DNA of 64,000 nucleotides from Parcubacteria group bacterium (GCA_016186395.1 JACPLU010000003.1:76289-140288); one strand, 5' to 3'. Shown: positions 8,948-40,647, numbered from the stretch's first letter. Translations and numbers: made by a program. The notes: generated by a model from the letters alone, not told the origin.

Positions 8948-8982
8948 TTTTGAAAAGATATTGGTGCTTTTCAAAATCAATC
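8942..8982. other. perfect 16-bp inverted repeat hairpin
   Basis: GATTGATTTTGAAAAG-N9-CTTTTCAAAATCAATC. Confidence 0.4.
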
Positions 8983-9038
8983 CCGACTTATATAATTTCC
9001 CTTTGCTCGCTTGCGCTCGCTTCGGGGCTGTCATTCAT

Positions 9039-9062
9039 CCCCGAGCTGACGCTCGGGGTTTT
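9039..9062 (+). terminator. intrinsic terminator
   Basis: CCCCGAGC-TGAC-GCTCGGGG followed by TTTT. Confidence 0.6.
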
Positions 9063-9145
9063 CTGACAGGAATTATAAAATAATTAATACTGACTTTCTG
9101 AAGGTGTTGTGTTAAACAACAGGCTTTAGAAAATCGGGAATAACG

Positions 9146-28766: not shown

Positions 28767-28899
28767 GCTTGGCTTCTATGCATATTCGGCACGCAATTTT
28801 TCTCCAGCGTGAAAAATTGTTAAGTGAGAGTTTACTTTTCGCCTTTGGCGAACCATGCAAAGTAAACTCTCAATTACCTTATATGCATAGTAGCCAAGC
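28767..28899. repeat. structured repeat family C copy 1 (nested hairpins)
   Basis: Outer stem GCTTGGCTTCTATGCATAT/ATATGCATAGTAGCCAAGC. Inner stem GTGAGAGTTTACTTT/AAAGTAAACTCTCAA. Conserved core TTCGCCTTTGGCGAACCATGCA. Confidence 0.7.
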
Positions 28900-34453: not shown

Positions 34454-34560
34454 ATTTAAAAGTCCCACCAGAGGCGAAGACCGCCAAAGGCGGCAAAAAG
34501 TGAAATGCAAAAATTAAAGCCAAAATTTAAAATTTTTTGATTTTTGAATTCTAAATTATA

Positions 34561-34650
34561 ATTACTTGCAGAACACCGCGGCCGTAAGGCCGCGGATGAA
34601 TGCAAGCCCTGAAGTGAGTCGAGTTTGACTCGACGAACGAAAGGTAAATA
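34561..34650. repeat. hairpin repeat family B copy 1
   Basis: CCGCGGCC-GTAA-GGCCGCGG, GATGAATGCAAGCCC and GAGTCGAG...CTCGAC. It is followed (34650-34735) by three further perfect palindromes before murF. Confidence 0.6.
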
Positions 34651-34743
34651 TATAAATCAAATTTCAGCAAAAATCATTAATGTATTTTTGCTGAAATTGT
34701 ACTCGCCCGAGTACCACGGGCGTACGCCCGTGGATATCTATTT

Positions 34744-36051
34744 ATGAAGTCTATTCTAGAGTTTATACTCAAAATATTGGCTAAAGCTGTTTTAAGAAAA
34801 TATAAACCCCAAGTAGTTGGGATTACTGGTTCGGTTGGAAAAACTTCGGCTAAAGAAGCGATTTATGCAGTGTTAAAAACCAAATATAAGGTAAGACGTG
34901 GGATGGGAAACTTAAATAATTCTCTCGGTGTTCCTTTAACTATTTTAAGCGGTTACTACGAAGATTATAAAGAAGTAAGTCCATGGTTTTTTTGGCCGAA
35001 AGTTGTTTTAGGGTCTTTAAGTTTATTATTTACTAAAGCTGACTATCCAGAGATTTTGATTCTTGAGTTAGGCGCAGATCACCCTGGCGATATTGGTTAT
35101 TTAGTTAAAATGGTAAAGCCATTTATCGGAGTGGTTACGGAAATAGGAGATATTCCTGTTCATGTAGAGTTTTATTCAGGACCCAAACATTTAGCCGAAG
35201 AAAAATCAAGGTTAATTTCTAGTTTGCCGTCAAACGGTTTTGCAATATTAAATACTGATGACGATTTAGTTTTAGATATGAAGAATCAATCTAGGGCCAA
35301 GGTGATGACTTACGGATTTGGCCGATCAGCCGATATGATTATTTCGGATTTAAATTATAATCAAACCGCGAACTTAGTGGATACAGAAATGACGTTTAAA
35401 ATTTCTTATGCCGGGAGTTTTGTACCCTTTAGACTTCATGCGTTTGGTAAATCCCAGGCTTATGCCACTGTCGCCGCGGCATCTGTTGGCGTTTCTTTAG
35501 GAATGAATCTGGTTGAAGTTGCTCAAGCAATGAAAGAATTTAAACCACCCATTGGTAGATTGAACTTAATAAGGGGTATTAAAAACACAGTAATTTTAGA
35601 TGATACGTACAATGCATCACCATCGTCTATGCATTTGGCCTTAGATATTCTTGGTCAGTTGCAAGCCAAAAGAAAGGTGGCAATTTTAGCTGATATGTTG
35701 GAATTAGGTGAATATACAGAAGAGGCTCATAGAAGTACGGGAAATTTAGCAGCTGAGTCTGCTGATGTCTTAATTTGTGTTGGAAGCCGAGCAATGTTTA
35801 TTGCAGATTCCGCCGGAAATCAACTTGCCCCGAGCGTAGTTGAGGGGATGTCTAAAGAAAATATTCTTAGATTTTCGAATGTTGGTGAAGCCTTAAAGCA
35901 AATAGACGGGTTAATAAAAGAAGGGGACTTAGTTTTAGTTAAAGGTTCGCAAAGCATGAGAATGGAGAAGCTAGTAGAATCAATAATGGCTGAACCGGAA
36001 AAAGCAGGTGAATTGTTAGTAAGGCAAGGAAAGAATTGGAAAAAGCAATGA
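34744..36051 (+). CDS. murF: UDP-N-acetylmuramoyl-tripeptide--D-alanyl-D-alanine ligase MurF
   Basis: GITGSVGKTS P-loop and Mur ligase C-terminal domain. Confidence 0.85.
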   Translation: MKSILEFILKILAKAVLRKYKPQVVGITGSVGKTSAKEAIYAVLKTKYKVRRGMGNLNNSLGVPLTILSGYYEDYKEVSPWFFWPKVVLGSLSLLFTKADYPEILILELGADHPGDIGYLVKMVKPFIGVVTEIGDIPVHVEFYSGPKHLAEEKSRLISSLPSNGFAILNTDDDLVLDMKNQSRAKVMTYGFGRSADMIISDLNYNQTANLVDTEMTFKISYAGSFVPFRLHAFGKSQAYATVAAASVGVSLGMNLVEVAQAMKEFKPPIGRLNLIRGIKNTVILDDTYNASPSSMHLALDILGQLQAKRKVAILADMLELGEYTEEAHRSTGNLAAESADVLICVGSRAMFIADSAGNQLAPSVVEGMSKENILRFSNVGEALKQIDGLIKEGDLVLVKGSQSMRMEKLVESIMAEPEKAGELLVRQGKNWKKQ

Positions 36052-36057
36052 ACGGTT

Positions 36058-36184
36058 GAGTCAATGTACTTTTTAGGCACGTAATTTTTATCCAGCGATA
36101 AAAATTACTAAGTGGCATTGTAAAATTCGCCTGAGGCGAACCGTGCATTTTCCAATGCCAATTACCTAAAAAATACATTGACTC
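36058..36184. repeat. structured repeat family C copy 2
   Basis: Outer stem GAGTCAATGTACTTTTTAGG/CCTAAAAAATACATTGACTC. Inner stem GGCATTGTAAAAT/ATTTTCCAATGCC. Conserved core TTCGCCTGAGGCGAACCGTGCA. The stems differ from copy 1 but stay complementary. Confidence 0.7.
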
Positions 36185-36344
36185 AATCCTGCAAAGACAG
36201 TATGAATAGAAAATAATGCCCCTGTTGTCTCCTCCTTCGCTCAAATGATATTTGAGCTTCGGACGGACAAAGAAGTTTGGTCTAATTCCGATTTCTTTAA
36301 ATCTCTGTTGGCGCATTCGTTTCCGATTTATATAAAAATTTGTT

Positions 36345-36422
36345 GGCCTTATCGTCTAGCTTGGTCCAGGACACTTGGTTCTCATCCAAGAAACTCGGGT
36401 TCAAATCCCGATGAGGCCGCCA
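36345..36422 (+). tRNA. tRNA-Glu (anticodon CTC), CCA encoded
   Basis: Acceptor GGCCTTA/TGAGGCC, D region GTCTAGCTTGGTCCAGGAC (Glu-type), anticodon arm CTTGG-TTCTCAT-CCAAG, T arm TCGGG-TTCAAAT-CCCGA. Confidence 0.88.
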
Positions 36423-36443
36423 AATTTTTATTAATAAATCGAG
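36403..36443 (+). repeat. 41-bp direct repeat, copy 1 (tRNA-Glu 3' end plus 22 nt downstream)
   Basis: AAATCCCGATGAGGCCGCCAAATTTTTATTAATAAATCGAG, identical to 37443-37483. Confidence 0.9.
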
Positions 36444-36488
36444 AATCCACGATTGTTAGTTGCGCTTAGCACAAAACAATCGGGACTA

Positions 36489-36541
36489 GTCTGGTCTAGG
36501 ACACGACGTTCTCAACGCTGGAACACGGGTTCGATTCCCGT
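36489..36541 (+). pseudogene. tRNA-Glu-like fragment with D arm and T arm but no acceptor stem
   Basis: GTCTGGTCTAGGACAC...TTCTCAA...ACGGGTTCGATTCCCGT parallels tRNA-Glu. The anticodon stem and acceptor stem do not pair. Confidence 0.4.
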
Positions 36542-36763
36542 ATGCGTTGCGAGCGAACGAAGGTGAGTGAATACTGAGATCAGCAGATCGAAGTGCGCTC
36601 TATATTTTACTAACTAACTTTATGCAGGGCCAGGAGATATGTGAATAAAATGGTGCCTGACACCTTTTTCCAACACCTTTTTCCAACGGTGCTCTTGACT
36701 TAAAAAACCGGTTATGCTACATTAGTCAACGTAATCAGGCTTAATGCTTGATACCTATACGGC

Positions 36764-37177
36764 ATGGTGTCGTATAGAACTTGTAGATTGAAAATTAAAA
36801 AAGGAGAAACGGATATGAAAAAGACTTTCGCAGTTTTCGCTTCGACCGTCGTGCTCAGTTTCCTCGTCCCGATTATTGGTTGTTCTACACCCGTGGATTC
36901 TCAGCACCCATCCCAAAAGTGTGTAGAGGGAATAGTAGAGAGAGTAGAATATACACAGACGGAAAATGGTTTTATGAACCCAGGACATCAGAATAACCAT
37001 ATATATTTTTCTGATGGAAGATCTATTTCTCTGCCAGGGACATTGCGAGCACCAAAGGCAATAGTTGTAGGAAAATTCAATAGGATTTGGTTTGATGACA
37101 CCAGTAGCTACCGTAACCACACCCCTTGGATAAGAGATGTCGAAATACTTCAACAGCCTGAGACAAATTCGAAGTAG
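36764..37177 (+). CDS. predicted lipoprotein
   Basis: Signal peptide with lipobox PIIGC; SD AAGGAG. Confidence 0.5.
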   Translation: MVSYRTCRLKIKKGETDMKKTFAVFASTVVLSFLVPIIGCSTPVDSQHPSQKCVEGIVERVEYTQTENGFMNPGHQNNHIYFSDGRSISLPGTLRAPKAIVVGKFNRIWFDDTSSYRNHTPWIRDVEILQQPETNSK

Positions 37178-37442
37178 CGCGAGCCATAGCTTGCTCATCA
37201 GCGCCTTGCGGAATTCGTGAACAACGAATCAATCCGCAAGGCGCTTTCTTTTTCTCAAATCTCAAAGAACAAACTTTGCGAAAACAAATGCTTTCAGCTG
37301 TTCTTTATTTGTATTTGTTTTCGCAACAACGGCGAAATGCGCTCGAACTATTTTAAGTATTCTGCGCAAAATATGTATAAATTATTGTGCTGGGTCATCC
37401 AAGATTGAGTTCTCCGCCAAAGGCGGATCATCCTCAGGCTGA

Positions 37443-37483
37443 AAATCCCGATGAGGCCGCCAAATTTTTATTAATAAATCGAG
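37443..37483 (+). repeat. 41-bp direct repeat, copy 2 (att-like)
   Basis: Identical to 36403-36443, about 1 kb downstream. Confidence 0.9.
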
Positions 37484-37507
37484 GGTTCTAAGTATCAGTC
37501 GTCTTTG

Positions 37508-37942
37508 CTACTTTTTTTGATTTAAATTTTTGACATTAGCTTTTAGGAACGCCTGGATATGATTTAAAATTGGTTCTTTTTTATGCGGTCTGCTTCCAGC
37601 GATATGCTTGGCGAATCTATAAAGTCTATCATTGCTAATATAAATCCATGACCCGTTCTTATACAGAAAGTATAGTAAACACATGATAGCAATTCTTTTA
37701 TTTCCATTTTGAAATGGGTGGTTTTTTATTAAAAGATAAAATAAAACACTCCCTTTGCCAATAAGACCTCTATAGAAATCTGTTTTATCAAAACTTGCAA
37801 AAGGGACGGCAAGACAACTTTCAAGTATATTAGGGAATCTTGAACCAAAATTGGGAATAGGTTCATTCCATGTCATTAACTTTTCTGCTAAACGGAAGGC
37901 TGTGTATTCTACCTCGGCAATTGTTAGTTGTTTTGGTCTCAT
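37508..37942 (-). CDS. Doc/Fic-family toxin
   Basis: HPFQNGNKR matches the Doc-type Fic motif HxFx(D/N)GNKR. Confidence 0.75.
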   Translation of the reverse strand: MRPKQLTIAEVEYTAFRLAEKLMTWNEPIPNFGSRFPNILESCLAVPFASFDKTDFYRGLIGKGSVLFYLLIKNHPFQNGNKRIAIMCLLYFLYKNGSWIYISNDRLYRFAKHIAGSRPHKKEPILNHIQAFLKANVKNLNQKK

Positions 37943-38193
37943 TCCTTTCCAAGTAATTTAAAAACTTCACCATAGTCTGCAATGGCTTTATTGAGGGCTT
38001 TTTCAATATTATCTTTTTTTTCTTGACCAATTGATTTTCCCAAAGCTTCTAATAGATTTTCGTGGCTGACTATATAGTTTCTTCCAACCTTCTCGGCTTT
38101 TAGTTTCCCTTTTTTGATACGGTTGAATACCCCCACTCTGCTTATATGTAATATATGTGCTACTTCAGTTGTAGAATAGTATTTTTTTGTCAT
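37939..38193 (-). CDS. HTH (excisionase/MerR-like) DNA-binding protein, putative antitoxin/regulator of the Doc gene
   Basis: TTEVAHILHISRVGVFNRIKKGKL helix-turn-helix. Its stop overlaps the Doc start by 4 nt. Confidence 0.6.
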   Translation of the reverse strand: MTKKYYSTTEVAHILHISRVGVFNRIKKGKLKAEKVGRNYIVSHENLLEALGKSIGQEKKDNIEKALNKAIADYGEVFKLLGKE

Positions 38194-38225
38194 ATTCGTA
38201 TGTTAACATATGTTAACATACGAAT
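38194..38225. promoter_or_regulatory. 32-bp perfect palindrome (putative operator) abutting the HTH gene start
   Basis: ATTCGTATGTTAACATATGTTAACATACGAAT is its own reverse complement. It lies immediately 5' of the ATG at 38193. Confidence 0.6.
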
Positions 38226-38264
38226 AAAGTCCATTTTCTATAGTGACACAGGGCTTTCTGTTTT

Positions 38265-38526
38265 TATTATTTCTTGTAGAATACCCCGCGGTTTGCCCCG
38301 TCACCAGACCCAGCACAGCAATGCCAGAATGTTTTGGGTTTAAGTGCACTTCAGTCCGTAGAGTACACTTACTTTAGTAAGAACCGTTCTAATAAAGCAT
38401 TGGTACAGAAAACCAGTGCTGGGCTCGGTGCGGGGCTTGCCACGGAGATGAATGTAAGCCCGAAGCGAAGCCAAGTCAGACTTGGCGAAGCGGAGGAAAT
38501 AACATAAATCCAGCAATTTTTGAAAT
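38265..38526. repeat. hairpin repeat family B copy 2, with a long internal stem insertion
   Basis: Shares the 5' end TATTATTTCTTGTAGAATACCCCGCGG and the 3' end GATGAATGTAAGCCCGAAGCGAAG...GCGGAGGAAATAACATAAATCCAGCAATTTTTGAAA with copy 3. Confidence 0.65.
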
Positions 38527-38683
38527 ATTTAAAAAATACTAATTCTTTTCAAAAATTGCGTAGGGTACTCTTTTTAAGAGTACCTCACAGCTTGCTGTGA
38601 GGATTTCTATTAATTTGTTTTGATATGCTGATTTTCTTCTCTTTCAAACATGCAGGGTGGAGTAAATAAAAAGCCCTTGTGGG

Positions 38684-40476: not shown

Positions 40477-40480
40477 TTTT

Positions 40481-40616
40481 TATTATTTCTTGCAGAATAC
40501 CCCGCGGCCTGTCTGCCGATAGGCAGGCTTGCCGTGGGGATGAATGCAAGCCCGAAGCAAAGTCGAGCTTAGCTCGACGAAGCGGAGGAAATAACATAAA
40601 TCCAGCAATTTTTGAA
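40481..40616. repeat. hairpin repeat family B copy 3
   Basis: TATTATTTCTTGCAGAATACCCCGCGGCC..., GATGAATGCAAGCCCGAAGC, AGTCGAGCTTAGCTCGAC, GCGGAGGAAATAACATAAATCCAGCAATTTTTGAAA. Confidence 0.65.
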
Positions 40617-40647
40617 AGGTTTTAACTCGGATATATCAACCCGTTGA

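What the first reader, a model, noticed from the sequence alone, without database searches (positions are those of the whole stretch)
36345..38225. A 41-bp direct repeat of the tRNA-Glu 3' end brackets about 1 kb (tRNA fragment plus lipoprotein gene) next to a Doc-toxin/HTH module with a 32-bp perfect palindromic operator
What the sequence shows directly:
- The last 17 nt of tRNA-Glu(CTC) plus CCA and 22 downstream nt (AAATCCCGATGAGGCCGCCAAATTTTTATTAATAAATCGAG) recur exactly at 37443-37483.
- The bracketed DNA holds a degenerate tRNA-Glu-like fragment (36489-36541), a promoter-like TTGACT-N17-TACATT and a lipoprotein gene.
- Immediately outside the second repeat are a Doc-type Fic toxin (HPFQNGNKR) and an upstream overlapping HTH protein. 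The HTH protein's start abuts a 32-bp perfect palindrome (ATTCGTATGTTAACATATGTTAACATACGAAT).

Established knowledge: integrative elements inserting into tRNA genes duplicate the tRNA 3' end as attL/attR. Doc normally pairs with Phd.

Inference: this is a decayed, integrase-less tRNA-Glu island or satellite carrying a toxin-antitoxin addiction module with an unusual HTH (non-Phd) partner and a very long operator.
Basis: partly seen in the sequence, partly recalled or inferred. Interest (0 to 1): 0.65.

Follow-up and report, generated by a model that had tools for sequence, protein, structure and literature searches.

The report
tRNA-Glu insertion scar beside Doc toxin-antitoxin
In a small uncultured groundwater-type bacterium (Parcubacteria), the variable stretch after a tRNA-Glu gene holds two separate pieces of mobile DNA: a 1-kb integrase-less insertion remnant carrying a lipoprotein gene, and a self-regulated Doc toxin-antitoxin pair whose antitoxin has an excisionase-type DNA-binding domain. 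Both are variations on well-known themes.

Summary
An exact 41-nt repeat (36403-36443 and 37443-37483) runs from the T-loop of tRNA-Glu(CTC) to 21 nt past CCA. It brackets a decayed tRNA-Glu copy and a lipoprotein gene. Next to it lie a Doc toxin (HPFQNGNKR), an overlapping 84-aa HTH_17 protein and a perfect 34-bp palindrome.

The murF–tRNA-Glu…rplU interval is hypervariable. In two Yanofskybacteria relatives, serine-recombinase genes end inside this tRNA. So an att-flanked, integrase-less remnant is the best reading of the repeat. No empty site could be found to prove it.

The toxin-antitoxin pair lies outside the repeat and is an independent cassette. The same 83-84-aa HTH_17 + Doc pair, with 4- or 8-bp overlap, occurs in 7 unrelated chromosomal contexts in these bacteria, none next to a tRNA gene. 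All keep the palindrome core (TATGTTAACATATGTTAAYATA), and its two half-sites change symmetrically. In most loci the core carries an extended −10 box 6 nt before the ATG. That implies a leaderless, auto-repressed operon.

HTH_17 is therefore the usual partner of this Doc clade, not an oddity of this locus. The source record already annotates the toxin. This is a new variant of a known kind, of modest interest.

The parts
36345..36422 (+). tRNA-Glu(CTC), intact; follows murF. The murF–tRNA-Glu order is conserved in Yanofskybacteria relatives.
36403..36443 (+). Direct-repeat copy 1 (attL-like): T-loop to CCA, plus 21 nt of trailer.
36486..36541 (+). Decayed tRNA-Glu(CTC)-like fragment, D-arm to T-arm, with no acceptor stem. 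It sits 154 nt upstream of the lipoprotein promoter, about the same distance as the real tRNAs in L029 and L035.
36652..36664 (+). GC hairpin GGTGCCTGACACC followed by a T-run (terminator-like), upstream of the lipoprotein promoter.
36695..36723 (+). Lipoprotein promoter TTGACT-N17-TACATT with an upstream TG. Conserved as TTGACT-N17-TATATT in homologous cassettes.
36724..36814 (+). Conserved ~90-nt 5' leader (80-83% identity to L029/L035). It has a hairpin with compensatory changes: CTATACG/CGTATAG against CTCTGCG/CGCAGAG.
36815..37177 (+). Lipoprotein gene, 120 aa, lipobox IIGC. No Pfam, NCBIfam, PHROG or PADLOC family. Only 62-65% homologues were found, in other Patescibacteria.
37201..37254 (+). 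Intrinsic terminator of the lipoprotein gene (GCGCCTTGCGGA…TCCGCAAGGCGC plus T-run), conserved in L029 and L035.
37276..37326 (+). Conserved inverted repeat TTGCGAAAACAAAT…ATTTGTTTTCGCAA. In L029 the left arm forms the ftsW promoter (TTGCGA-N17-TATAAT); here the −10 is lost.
37382..37442 (+). Degenerate tRNA-Glu-like arm directly upstream of repeat copy 2. 37382-37421 aligns to tRNA positions 5-45 (p≈0.008 against shuffles).
37443..37483 (+). Direct-repeat copy 2 (attR-like), 100% identical to copy 1.
37508..37942 (-). Doc-family toxin, 144 aa. The motif KNHPFQNGNKRIA is invariant in the clade.
37939..38193 (-). 84-aa HTH_17 (excisionase/MerR-type winged helix) antitoxin with a C-terminal helix. 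Its stop codon overlaps the Doc start (ATGA).
38193..38226 (.). Perfect 34-bp palindrome, read as operator plus promoter. The conserved core is TATGTTAACATATGTTAACATA. On the minus strand, TGTTAACAT (extended −10) ends 6 nt before the ATG.

Best explanation
Two unrelated relics of mobile DNA lie side by side in the hypervariable interval between tRNA-Glu(CTC) and rplU of a Parcubacteria (Yanofskybacteria-related) genome.

(A) The insertion remnant. The 1,040-bp unit (36403-37442 plus the second 41-mer) is what is left of DNA that recombined into the 3' part of tRNA-Glu.
- The crossover lay within the 41-nt identity, from the T-loop onward.
- Copy 1 completes the working tRNA.
- Copy 2, preceded by a degenerate tRNA-like arm, is the displaced end.
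- The recombinase and most of the element are gone. What remains is an att-flanked, non-autonomous segment, similar to a cis-mobilizable element (CIME).
- Its content is a decayed tRNA-Glu copy and a self-contained lipoprotein cassette: promoter, structured leader, coding sequence and terminator.
- Recombination between the two 41-mers would delete it and leave the tRNA intact.

(B) The toxin-antitoxin cassette. Region 37508-38226 is a complete type II cassette of a family widespread in these bacteria.
- Doc carries the kinase-type Fic motif HxFxNGNKR. By homology with P1 Doc it is expected to phosphorylate EF-Tu and stop translation.
- An 84-aa antitoxin neutralises it. The antitoxin's N-terminal excisionase/MerR-type winged helix (HTH_17) takes the place of Phd. 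Its C-terminal amphipathic helix is inferred to bind Doc.
- A dimer of the antitoxin, alone or with Doc, binds the palindrome.
- The palindrome contains the operon's extended −10 box. The transcript starts at the A of the ATG, so it is leaderless. Binding therefore shuts off the cassette's own transcription.

Shown: the anatomy, the family assignments, conservation of the pair, conservation and symmetric co-variation of the operator, the fixed 6-nt spacing between −10 and ATG, and the hotspot context.
Inferred: the integration mechanism, DNA binding, toxin neutralisation, the EF-Tu target, and leaderless initiation.
For: (A) Insertion remnant.
- The 41-nt repeat is exact and unique; 0 copies are expected by chance. 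Independent read sets show it is real.
- It starts in the T-loop, one of the two tRNA sublocations used by integrases.
- DNA upstream of copy 2 keeps weak tRNA-like similarity, as an attP arm would (p≈0.008).
- The gene order murF–tRNA-Glu–[3.7-4.2 kb unrelated DNA]–rplU–recR–dnaB is shared with L003, while the content of the interval is unrelated.
- In L002 a bona fide large serine recombinase (Resolvase + Recombinase + Zn ribbon) ends inside tRNA-Glu. In L003 a recombinase-domain ORF does the same.
- The lipoprotein cassette is conserved at the DNA level (69-83%, including non-coding parts). In other genomes it sits directly after tRNA-Ala(TGC) (L029) and tRNA-Gly(TCC) (L035).
- No recombinase was found among ORFs from 28.9 to 47.6 kb.

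(B) Toxin-antitoxin cassette.
- Doc: TIGR01550 47.9 bits (cut-off 38.65), Pfam Fic 34.8 bits, and PDB 9vzc aligned over the motif. H75, F77, N79, G80, N81, K82 and R83 are invariant in 12 clade members.
- Antitoxin: HTH_17 at 31.8 bits. The AlphaFold model gives a winged helix over residues 1-55 (pLDDT 80-91) and a helix over 57-82 (pLDDT 53-69). The best folds are BldC, Pukovnik Xis (1.5 Å over 50 residues) and RdfS.
- An 83-84-aa HTH_17 followed by a 138-148-aa Doc, with 4-bp overlap (8 bp in L048), occurs in 7 further independent contexts: L012, L016, L040, L042, L044, L047 and L048.
- In L022 the HTH_17 gene and operator are intact but Doc is cut to about 20 codons. An antitoxin can survive alone; a toxin cannot.
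- The palindrome core is conserved while the flanking DNA is unrelated. Its half-sites co-vary symmetrically: GTTAAC/GTTAAC, GTTATC/GATAAC, GGTAAC/GTTACC.
- TGnTAAYAT ends exactly 6 nt before the ATG in 6 of 7 close loci, with no Shine-Dalgarno sequence. The lipoprotein gene, by contrast, has AAAGGAG.
Against: (A)
- No empty site, no circular junction and no intact parent element were found.
- No recombinase remnant is detectable. The antisense peptide match to the L002 recombinase C-terminus has E=6.9 and is largely explained by tRNA similarity.
- L002, L003 and L029 show no tRNA-end repeat around their insertions. The recombinases seen in relatives may therefore not be the agents here.
- The repeat includes 21 nt of trailer. 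The first 10 nt of that trailer are complementary to the tRNA's own 5' leader (I3), which suggests a locus-specific origin rather than a foreign attP.
- Base composition is only slightly raised: GC 0.42-0.44 against 0.35-0.40.

(B)
- Nothing has been tested biochemically.
- The C-terminal helix is modelled with low confidence.
- Leaderless initiation is inferred from spacing alone. In the distant member L048 the palindrome follows a canonical promoter and there is a ~40-nt leader.
Confidence: 0.62

Rival explanations
1. The 41-nt repeat was not made by a site-specific recombinase. One possibility is that the locus once held tandem tRNA-Glu copies. In that case the intact tRNA, the 36486-36541 fragment and the 37382-37462 remnant are three copies at different stages of decay, and gene conversion keeps the last 41 nt identical. 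The other possibility is that the lipoprotein cassette was inserted by RecA-type recombination across a short identity. On this reading the lipoprotein gene is an ordinary resident next to a tRNA, as it is in L029 and L035.
For: - Three tRNA-Glu-derived pieces lie within 1.1 kb.
- The fragment sits at the same distance from the lipoprotein promoter (154 nt) as real tRNAs in L029 (147 nt) and L035 (144 nt).
- The repeat includes locus-specific trailer that pairs with the 5' leader (I3).
- L029 has the cassette without any flanking repeat, embedded in the ddl–ftsW cell-wall cluster.
- No recombinase is present.
Against: - The boundary is sharp: 100% identity over 41 nt against an indel-rich alignment (about two-thirds identical aligned bases) immediately upstream. 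That fits a crossover boundary better than uniform decay or conversion.
- The start in the T-loop matches known integrase target positions.
- The interval is a demonstrated recombinase hotspot in relatives.
- The cassette follows three different tRNA species in three genomes. That is hard to explain by vertical descent.
Confidence: 0.25
2. One reading: a single decayed tRNA-Glu island or satellite extending over the Doc/HTH genes, with the toxin-antitoxin pair acting as the island's addiction module.
For: - The pair lies 24 nt beyond repeat copy 2, inside the variable tRNA-Glu–rplU interval.
- Toxin-antitoxin pairs are common on islands (general knowledge).
Against: - The pair is outside the repeat.
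- No third att-like copy exists downstream. Smith-Waterman scores are at shuffle level.
- The identical cassette, with its operator, recurs between unrelated core genes in 7 other contexts with no adjacent tRNA. An integrase gene is nearby in only one of them (L047).
- Flanking DNA loses all similarity within about 5 nt of the palindrome.
Confidence: 0.1
3. The HTH_17 protein is the island's excisionase (recombination directionality factor) rather than an antitoxin, and the palindrome is a recombination-related site.
For: - The fold and families are excisionase-type: TIGR01764 26.6 bits (below its 28.8-bit cut-off), PHROG excisionase families, and structural matches to Pukovnik Xis and RdfS.
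- It lies near an att-like repeat.
Against: - It is always translationally coupled to Doc and never seen beside a tRNA or att-like repeat; an integrase gene lies nearby in only one of 8 loci (L047).
- The palindrome sits on the protein's own promoter at a fixed distance from its ATG.
- An extra conserved C-terminal helix is present that excisionases do not need.
- Truncated MerR-type HTH antitoxins are already known with PIN toxins (PMC2701414).
Confidence: 0.03

Closest known systems
Phd/Doc type II toxin-antitoxin system of phage P1 and its chromosomal relatives
   Same: - The toxin is of the Doc subfamily of Fic proteins, with the kinase-type motif HxFx(D/N)(A/G)NKR.
- A small antitoxin gene lies upstream and overlaps the toxin gene.
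- A palindromic operator sits at the cassette's own promoter.
- The antitoxin is modular: an N-terminal DNA-binding part plus a C-terminal toxin-binding helix (the latter inferred here).
   Different: - The antitoxin's DNA-binding domain is an excisionase/MerR-type winged helix (HTH_17), not the Phd/YefM fold.
- There is a single dyad of two 11-17-nt half-sites overlapping an extended −10 box.
- The mRNA is probably leaderless.
- The nearest Docs on plasmids of cultivated bacteria are only about 30% identical and pair with AbrB.
Truncated-MerR antitoxin / PIN toxin pairs (Makarova, Wolf and Koonin 2009, PMC2701414)
   Same: The antitoxin is built on a truncated MerR-like (excisionase-like) helix-turn-helix. 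It is a two-gene mobile cassette.
   Different: The toxin is Doc, not PIN. That paper lists PHD, AbrB and YhfG as the Fic/Doc partners, not MerR. In the PIN pairs the extra toxin-binding segment is N-terminal; here it is C-terminal.
Cis-mobilizable elements (CIMEs) and other att-flanked, integrase-less remnants of tRNA-integrated islands (from memory: Pavlovic et al. 2004, Streptococcus thermophilus)
   Same: Short DNA flanked by direct repeats of the integration site, with no recombination genes. Recombination between the repeats would restore the target.
   Different: - Only 1 kb with a single cargo gene.
- No cognate integrase or parent element has been identified.
- Mobility is untested.
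- The repeat extends 21 nt beyond the tRNA.
Large serine recombinase elements at the same tRNA-Glu in Yanofskybacteria (L002, L003)
   Same: The same target gene and the same chromosomal position (murF–tRNA-Glu…rplU).
   Different: The window has no recombinase. Those loci show no long tRNA-end repeat. Their recombinase ORFs overlap the tRNA, which is not the case here.

Membership tests
Doc (death-on-curing) subfamily of Fic proteins | Score above the curated cut-off of the family models | tested here: met
   TIGR01550 47.9 bits against 38.65; Pfam PF02661 34.8 bits against 24
Doc (death-on-curing) subfamily of Fic proteins | Kinase-type motif HxFx(D/N)(A/G)NKR, with K in place of the G of AMPylating Fic proteins | tested here: met
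   HPFQNGNKR at residues 75-83. It is invariant in 12 clade members and aligns with HCFYNANKR of PDB 9vzc.
Doc (death-on-curing) subfamily of Fic proteins | Phosphorylates EF-Tu and arrests translation | not testable with these tools
   Inferred from homology only
Phd/Doc type II toxin-antitoxin module | Small antitoxin gene immediately upstream, co-transcribed and overlapping the toxin gene | tested here: met
   ATGA overlap at 37939-37942. The same 4-bp overlap is seen in 6 other contexts and an 8-bp overlap in L048.
Phd/Doc type II toxin-antitoxin module | Antitoxin of the Phd/YefM fold (PF02604) | tested here: not met
   The only Pfam hit is HTH_17. The model is a winged helix resembling Xis/BldC/MerR N-domains.
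Phd/Doc type II toxin-antitoxin module | Palindromic operator at its own promoter (autoregulation) | tested here: inconclusive
   In silico support is strong. The core is conserved in 8 loci, its half-sites co-vary symmetrically, and it overlaps the −10 box. Binding has not been tested.
HTH_17 / excisionase-family DNA-binding domain | Score above the Pfam cut-off and an excisionase-type fold | tested here: met
   PF12728 31.8 bits against 27. TIGR01764 at 26.6 bits is just below its 28.8 cut-off. Foldseek matches Pukovnik Xis at 1.5 Å rmsd and RdfS at 1.7 Å.
Excisionase (recombination directionality factor) as a function | Encoded with a cognate integrase next to att sites | tested here: not met
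   No integrase from 28.9 to 47.6 kb. Homologues sit between core genes.
tRNA-integrated genomic island or integrative element | Direct repeat of the tRNA 3' part flanking the inserted DNA | tested here: met
   41-nt exact repeat starting in the T-loop
tRNA-integrated genomic island or integrative element | Integrase or recombinase gene within the element | tested here: not met
   No Pfam or tblastn evidence of one
tRNA-integrated genomic island or integrative element | Empty site in related genomes or strains | tested here: inconclusive
   The nearest genomes have MurF only 48-54% identical. They share the flanks but hold different insertions. The metagenome scan for the tRNA 3' end returned only chance hits.
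tRNA-integrated genomic island or integrative element | Composition different from the surrounding genome | tested here: inconclusive
   GC 0.42-0.44 inside against 0.35-0.40 outside, partly due to the tRNA-like sequences
Cis-mobilizable element (CIME) | att-flanked, lacks recombination genes, and can be excised in trans by a related integrase | not testable with these tools
   The structure fits. Mobilisation cannot be assessed.

The most novel reading that the evidence does not exclude
The lipoprotein cassette (promoter, structured leader, gene and terminator, about 650 bp) is a miniature cargo module that travels between the 3' flanks of different tRNA genes in Patescibacteria. It is seen after tRNA-Glu here, tRNA-Ala in L029 and tRNA-Gly in L035. 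On this reading it is mobilised in trans by the recombinases whose genes overlap tRNA genes in relatives, and the exact 41-nt repeat is a still-active att pair rather than a dead scar.
Probability: 0.1. Interest if true: 0.55.

Novelty: new variant of a known kind. Interest (0 to 1): 0.3.

Why it matters
The value is modest and mostly for annotation and for the biology of these reduced genomes.

1. It defines a Doc toxin clade, abundant in Patescibacteria (>5,000 Doc homologues in the search), whose sampled members (8 loci) pair with an excisionase-type HTH_17 protein. Such small genes risk being annotated as excisionases or generic HTH proteins. The work gives a testable operator (half-site ATTYGTATGKTAWCAT) and a probable leaderless promoter design.

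2. It shows that the tRNA-Glu(CTC) gene after murF is a recombination hotspot in Yanofskybacteria-like genomes. This is useful for finding mobile elements in organisms where few are known.

3. It warns against reading every toxin-antitoxin pair next to an att-like repeat as part of the same island.

Tried and rejected
- **Empty-site search.** The genome-contig scan with MurF found only distant relatives, 54% identity at best. The metagenome scan for the tRNA 3' 20-mer gave 5 hits, all chance matches inside coding sequences.
- **Exact-protein look-ups.** Doc is not on record. MurF and the lipoprotein are found only on Logan unitigs under 2 kb, which end at the repeat.
- **Third att copy.** None exists between 30 and 41 kb; Smith-Waterman scores equal those of shuffles.
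- **Recombinase remnant in the window.** tblastn with the L002 and L003 recombinases gave nothing significant. The match over the tRNA-like fragment (11/23 residues, same stop position, E=6.9) is mostly explained by tRNA similarity.
- **tRNA-end repeats around other insertions.** None in L002, L003, L029 or L035. Rfam finds no tRNA remnants after the cassette in L029 or L035.
- **Viral origin.** Scans of viral contigs for the operator core, Doc, the lipoprotein, the L002 recombinase and the att 20-mer were all negative.
- **Rfam on 34-42 kb at E≤1.** Only the tRNA, and a T-arm hit in the fragment.
- **The 267-aa gene after the HTH_17 gene in L022 as a new toxin.** Rejected. It has a signal peptide, and a 20-codon Doc stub lies between it and the HTH gene.
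- **Literature.** No description of an HTH_17/MerR-type antitoxin paired with Doc was found in the searchable library.
Full report
**What is in the sequence**

- ARAGORN and Rfam place an intact tRNA-Glu(CTC) at 36345-36422, directly after murF.
- The 41-mer AAATCCCGATGAGGCCGCCAAATTTTTATTAATAAATCGAG occurs at 36403-36443 and again, without a mismatch, at 37443-37483. There is no other copy in the 64-kb window even with three mismatches allowed, and none is expected by chance.
- The 41-mer starts in the T-loop, runs through CCA and continues 21 nt into the trailer.
- Logan unitigs from four independent runs stop at 36432 and 37472. These are the positions where a k=31 graph must branch at a 41-nt repeat, so the repeat exists in the reads and is not a product of MAG assembly.
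- Between the copies lie:
  - a tRNA-Glu-like fragment (36486-36541, D-arm to T-arm, anticodon loop TTCTCAA). It is 75% identical to the neighbouring tRNA and 80-82% identical to the tRNA-Glu of two relatives, with no acceptor stem;
  - a promoter TTGACT-N17-TACATT with an upstream TG;
  - a lipoprotein gene (36815-37177, lipobox IIGC);
  - a strong terminator.
- The 60 nt before copy 2 keep a weak, indel-rich resemblance to positions 5-45 of the tRNA (local score 23 against 13.2 ± 2.5 for shuffles, p≈0.008).

**Genomic context**

- The closest genomes in the species-representative collection are Candidatus Yanofskybacteria MAGs, with MurF 54% and 48% identical.
- The source record is an NCBI MAG labelled 'Parcubacteria group bacterium'. 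It already annotates the toxin as a death-on-curing family toxin and its partner as a helix-turn-helix protein.
- The order mraZ–rsmH–PBP2–murF–tRNA-Glu … rplU–recR–dnaB is shared with L003. The 3.7-4.2 kb between tRNA-Glu and rplU have nothing in common.
- In L002 a genuine large serine recombinase (Resolvase, Recombinase and Zn-ribbon domains) ends inside tRNA-Glu. In L003 a recombinase-domain ORF does the same. This tRNA is therefore an integration hotspot in the clade.
- In the window no recombinase is present among ORFs of at least 130 aa from 28.9 to 47.6 kb. tblastn with the two recombinases finds nothing significant.
- There is no third, decayed copy of the att-like sequence.

**The lipoprotein cassette**

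- The protein has no family assignment. It has 62-65% homologues in other Patescibacteria.
- The whole cassette is conserved at 69-83% DNA identity: promoter, a ~90-nt leader with a hairpin showing compensatory changes, coding sequence, terminator and a following inverted repeat.
- In L029 it lies directly after tRNA-Ala(TGC), between ddl and ftsW. In L035 it lies directly after tRNA-Gly(TCC).
- The real tRNAs there end 147 and 144 nt before the −35 box. In the window, the decayed tRNA-Glu fragment ends 154 nt before it.
- Neither L029 nor the available part of L035 shows a tRNA-end repeat or a tRNA remnant after the cassette.
- The recurring position after three different tRNA species suggests that the cassette moves with, or as part of, tRNA-targeting DNA. 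Three cases are too few to settle this.

**Reading of the repeat**

- The sharp change from 100% identity over 41 nt to an indel-rich, roughly two-thirds-identical alignment upstream fits a site-specific insertion. So do the start in the T-loop and the hotspot context. The recombinase would since have been lost, leaving an att-flanked, non-autonomous 1-kb remnant.
- I could not obtain the decisive evidence. No close relative or strain with an empty site was found, and no parent element.
- The main rival is decay of tandem tRNA-Glu copies, or a recombination-mediated insertion. Two facts keep it alive:
  - three tRNA-Glu-derived pieces lie within 1.1 kb;
  - the repeat includes trailer sequence complementary to the tRNA's own 5' leader (pair I3).
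- I give the att-remnant reading roughly 0.55-0.6 and this rival 0.25.

**The toxin-antitoxin pair**

- The 144-aa ORF is a Doc protein: TIGR01550 47.9 bits against a cut-off of 38.65, and Pfam Fic 34.8 bits.
- The kinase-type motif HPFQNGNKR is invariant in twelve members of its clade. It aligns to the motif of a solved Doc-family protein, 9vzc.
- The upstream 84-aa protein overlaps it by ATGA and is HTH_17.
- Its AlphaFold model has a confident winged helix over residues 1-55, which matches BldC, mycobacteriophage Pukovnik Xis and RdfS. It also has a less confident helix over residues 57-82, whose sequence is conserved across 26 homologues.
- The same pair occurs in seven further independent chromosomal contexts. 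In six of them an 84-aa HTH_17 protein overlaps a 141-148-aa Doc by 4 bp:
  - a Yanofskybacteria MAG, between an S1-domain gene and a fatty-acid hydroxylase gene;
  - between purM-like and ribosomal-protein genes;
  - an Azambacteria MAG;
  - an 805-kb contig;
  - Parcubacteria GW2011_GWC1_38_6 (L044-L046);
  - L047, which carries the same Doc protein as L044-L046 (P0063) but in a different upstream context, with a tyrosine-integrase gene before the pair.

  The seventh is a member with only 48% HTH identity, lying beside a restriction-modification gene; there an 83-aa HTH_17 overlaps a 138-aa Doc by 8 bp (L048).
- No tRNA was found in the three of these loci that were scanned (L012, L016 and L022).
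- In L022 the HTH_17 gene and its operator are intact but Doc is reduced to about 20 N-terminal codons. This is the expected way for such a pair to decay if the HTH protein is the antitoxin.
- The nearest Docs on plasmids of cultivated bacteria are about 30% identical and pair with AbrB.

**The palindrome**

- The perfect palindrome is 34 bp (38193-38226). Its last base is the A of the HTH start codon.
- Upstream regions of the homologous pairs share nothing except this site. The core TATGTTAACATATGTTAAYATA is kept in the same place.
- Where the core differs, it changes symmetrically in both halves: GTTATC…GATAAC in L040 and GGTAAC…GTTACC in L044. This is what a dimeric DNA-binding protein imposes.
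- The flanks are also partly symmetric in other loci (13-14 of 16 positions per half-site). The long operator is therefore a family trait that happens to be perfect here.
- On the coding strand the right half reads TGTTAACAT (TGTTAATAT elsewhere), an extended −10 box. It ends exactly 6 nt before the ATG in six of seven close loci, and there is no Shine-Dalgarno sequence. The lipoprotein gene, by contrast, has AAAGGAG.
- I infer a leaderless transcript that starts at the ATG, with an operator that covers the promoter.
- In the distant L048 the 14-bp core TTAACATATGTTAA follows a canonical TTGACT-N17-TAATAT promoter, and a ~40-nt leader is present.

**Comparison with what is known**

- The module works like Phd/Doc. 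It fails one defining feature of that family: the antitoxin fold is not Phd/YefM.
- Truncated MerR-type (excisionase-like) antitoxins are described with PIN toxins. The recorded Fic/Doc partners are PHD, AbrB and YhfG (Makarova et al. 2009, PMC2701414).
- I found no description of an HTH_17–Doc family in the searchable literature.
- Exchange of DNA-binding domains between antitoxin families is a well-known pattern, so this is a new variant and not a new kind.
- The idea that the HTH_17 protein is the island's excisionase is rejected. It is constantly coupled to Doc, it carries its own operator, and it is only once found near an integrase gene.

**Verdict**

An integrase-less att-flanked remnant at a tRNA hotspot is plausible but unproven.
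- The toxin-antitoxin pair is a separate, widely distributed cassette and not cargo of that remnant.
- Interest is modest (0.3).

Noticed in passing
window 38261-38533 (+), 40477-40626 (+), 34549-34680 (+), 8969-9080 (−); weak hit at L003 5164-5225: A dispersed intergenic element of about 130-150 nt with at least four copies in 64 kb. Its layout is: a conserved 5' part TTATTATTTCTTG(T/C)AGAAYACC; CCCCGCGG; a variable hairpin (21 nt in one copy, about 160 nt in another); CTTGCCGTGGGGATGAATGCAAGCCCGAAGC; a second hairpin whose stem is fully compensated between copies (GTCGAGC/GCTCGAC against GCCAAGT/ACTTGGC); then GAAGCGGAGGAAATAACATAAATCCAGCAATTTTTGAAA. A pseudoknot is possible. There is no Rfam match. 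It could be a small RNA family or a miniature mobile element.
   Followed up: partly
window 36691-37345; L029 1601-2400; L035 2835-3619: The lipoprotein cassette, including its non-coding parts, is conserved at 69-83% DNA identity. It lies directly after three different tRNA species: a Glu-like fragment here, tRNA-Ala(TGC) in L029 and tRNA-Gly(TCC) in L035. The distance from tRNA to promoter is nearly the same in all three (154, 147 and 144 nt).
   Followed up: partly
window 36724-36814: The ~90-nt leader of the lipoprotein mRNA is more conserved (80-83%) than the coding region. It contains a hairpin with compensatory changes (CTATACG-GCATGGTGT-CGTATAG against CTCTGCG…CGCAGAG). It may be a cis-regulatory RNA; there is no Rfam match.
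   Followed up: no
L002 11301-12845; L003 12810-14445: In two Yanofskybacteria MAGs a large serine recombinase gene on the opposite strand ends inside tRNA-Glu(CTC). The last 13-19 codons are antisense to the tRNA. No long tRNA-end repeat was found in the DNA available.
   Followed up: partly
L022 8001-8335 (also L023): An orphan HTH_17 antitoxin with an intact operator. Doc is reduced to a ~20-codon stub (…HLTIAEVIDAAVVLSVHEV*). The next gene encodes a secreted 267-aa protein.
   Followed up: yes
window 36049-36193 and 28785-28879: A palindromic element of about 145 nt immediately after murF. Its terminal inverted repeats are GGTTGAGTCAATGTACTTTTTAGG / CCTAAAAAATACATTGACTCAATCC. A 74% similar copy lies at 28785-28879. 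It looks like a miniature inverted-repeat element.
   Followed up: no
window 36332-36354 and 36409-36431: The 5' leader (ATAAAAATTT) and the 3' trailer (AAATTTTTAT) of tRNA-Glu are perfectly complementary. This extends the acceptor stem by about 10 bp in the precursor. The trailer half is part of the 41-nt repeat (pair I3).
   Followed up: no
L030, L032, L033 (insertion at the position of L029 1736): In some strains an insertion sequence encoding an HTH_38 protein of ≥283 aa (cut by the contig end; probably an IS30-type transposase) interrupts the lipoprotein leader just after the −10 box.
   Followed up: partly
window 37508-37942: The Doc protein matches the C-terminal third of the PADLOC candidate single-gene defence system PDC-S23 (E=1.5e-17). 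In L048 the pair lies next to a restriction-modification gene. This hints that the clade may act in phage defence.
   Followed up: no
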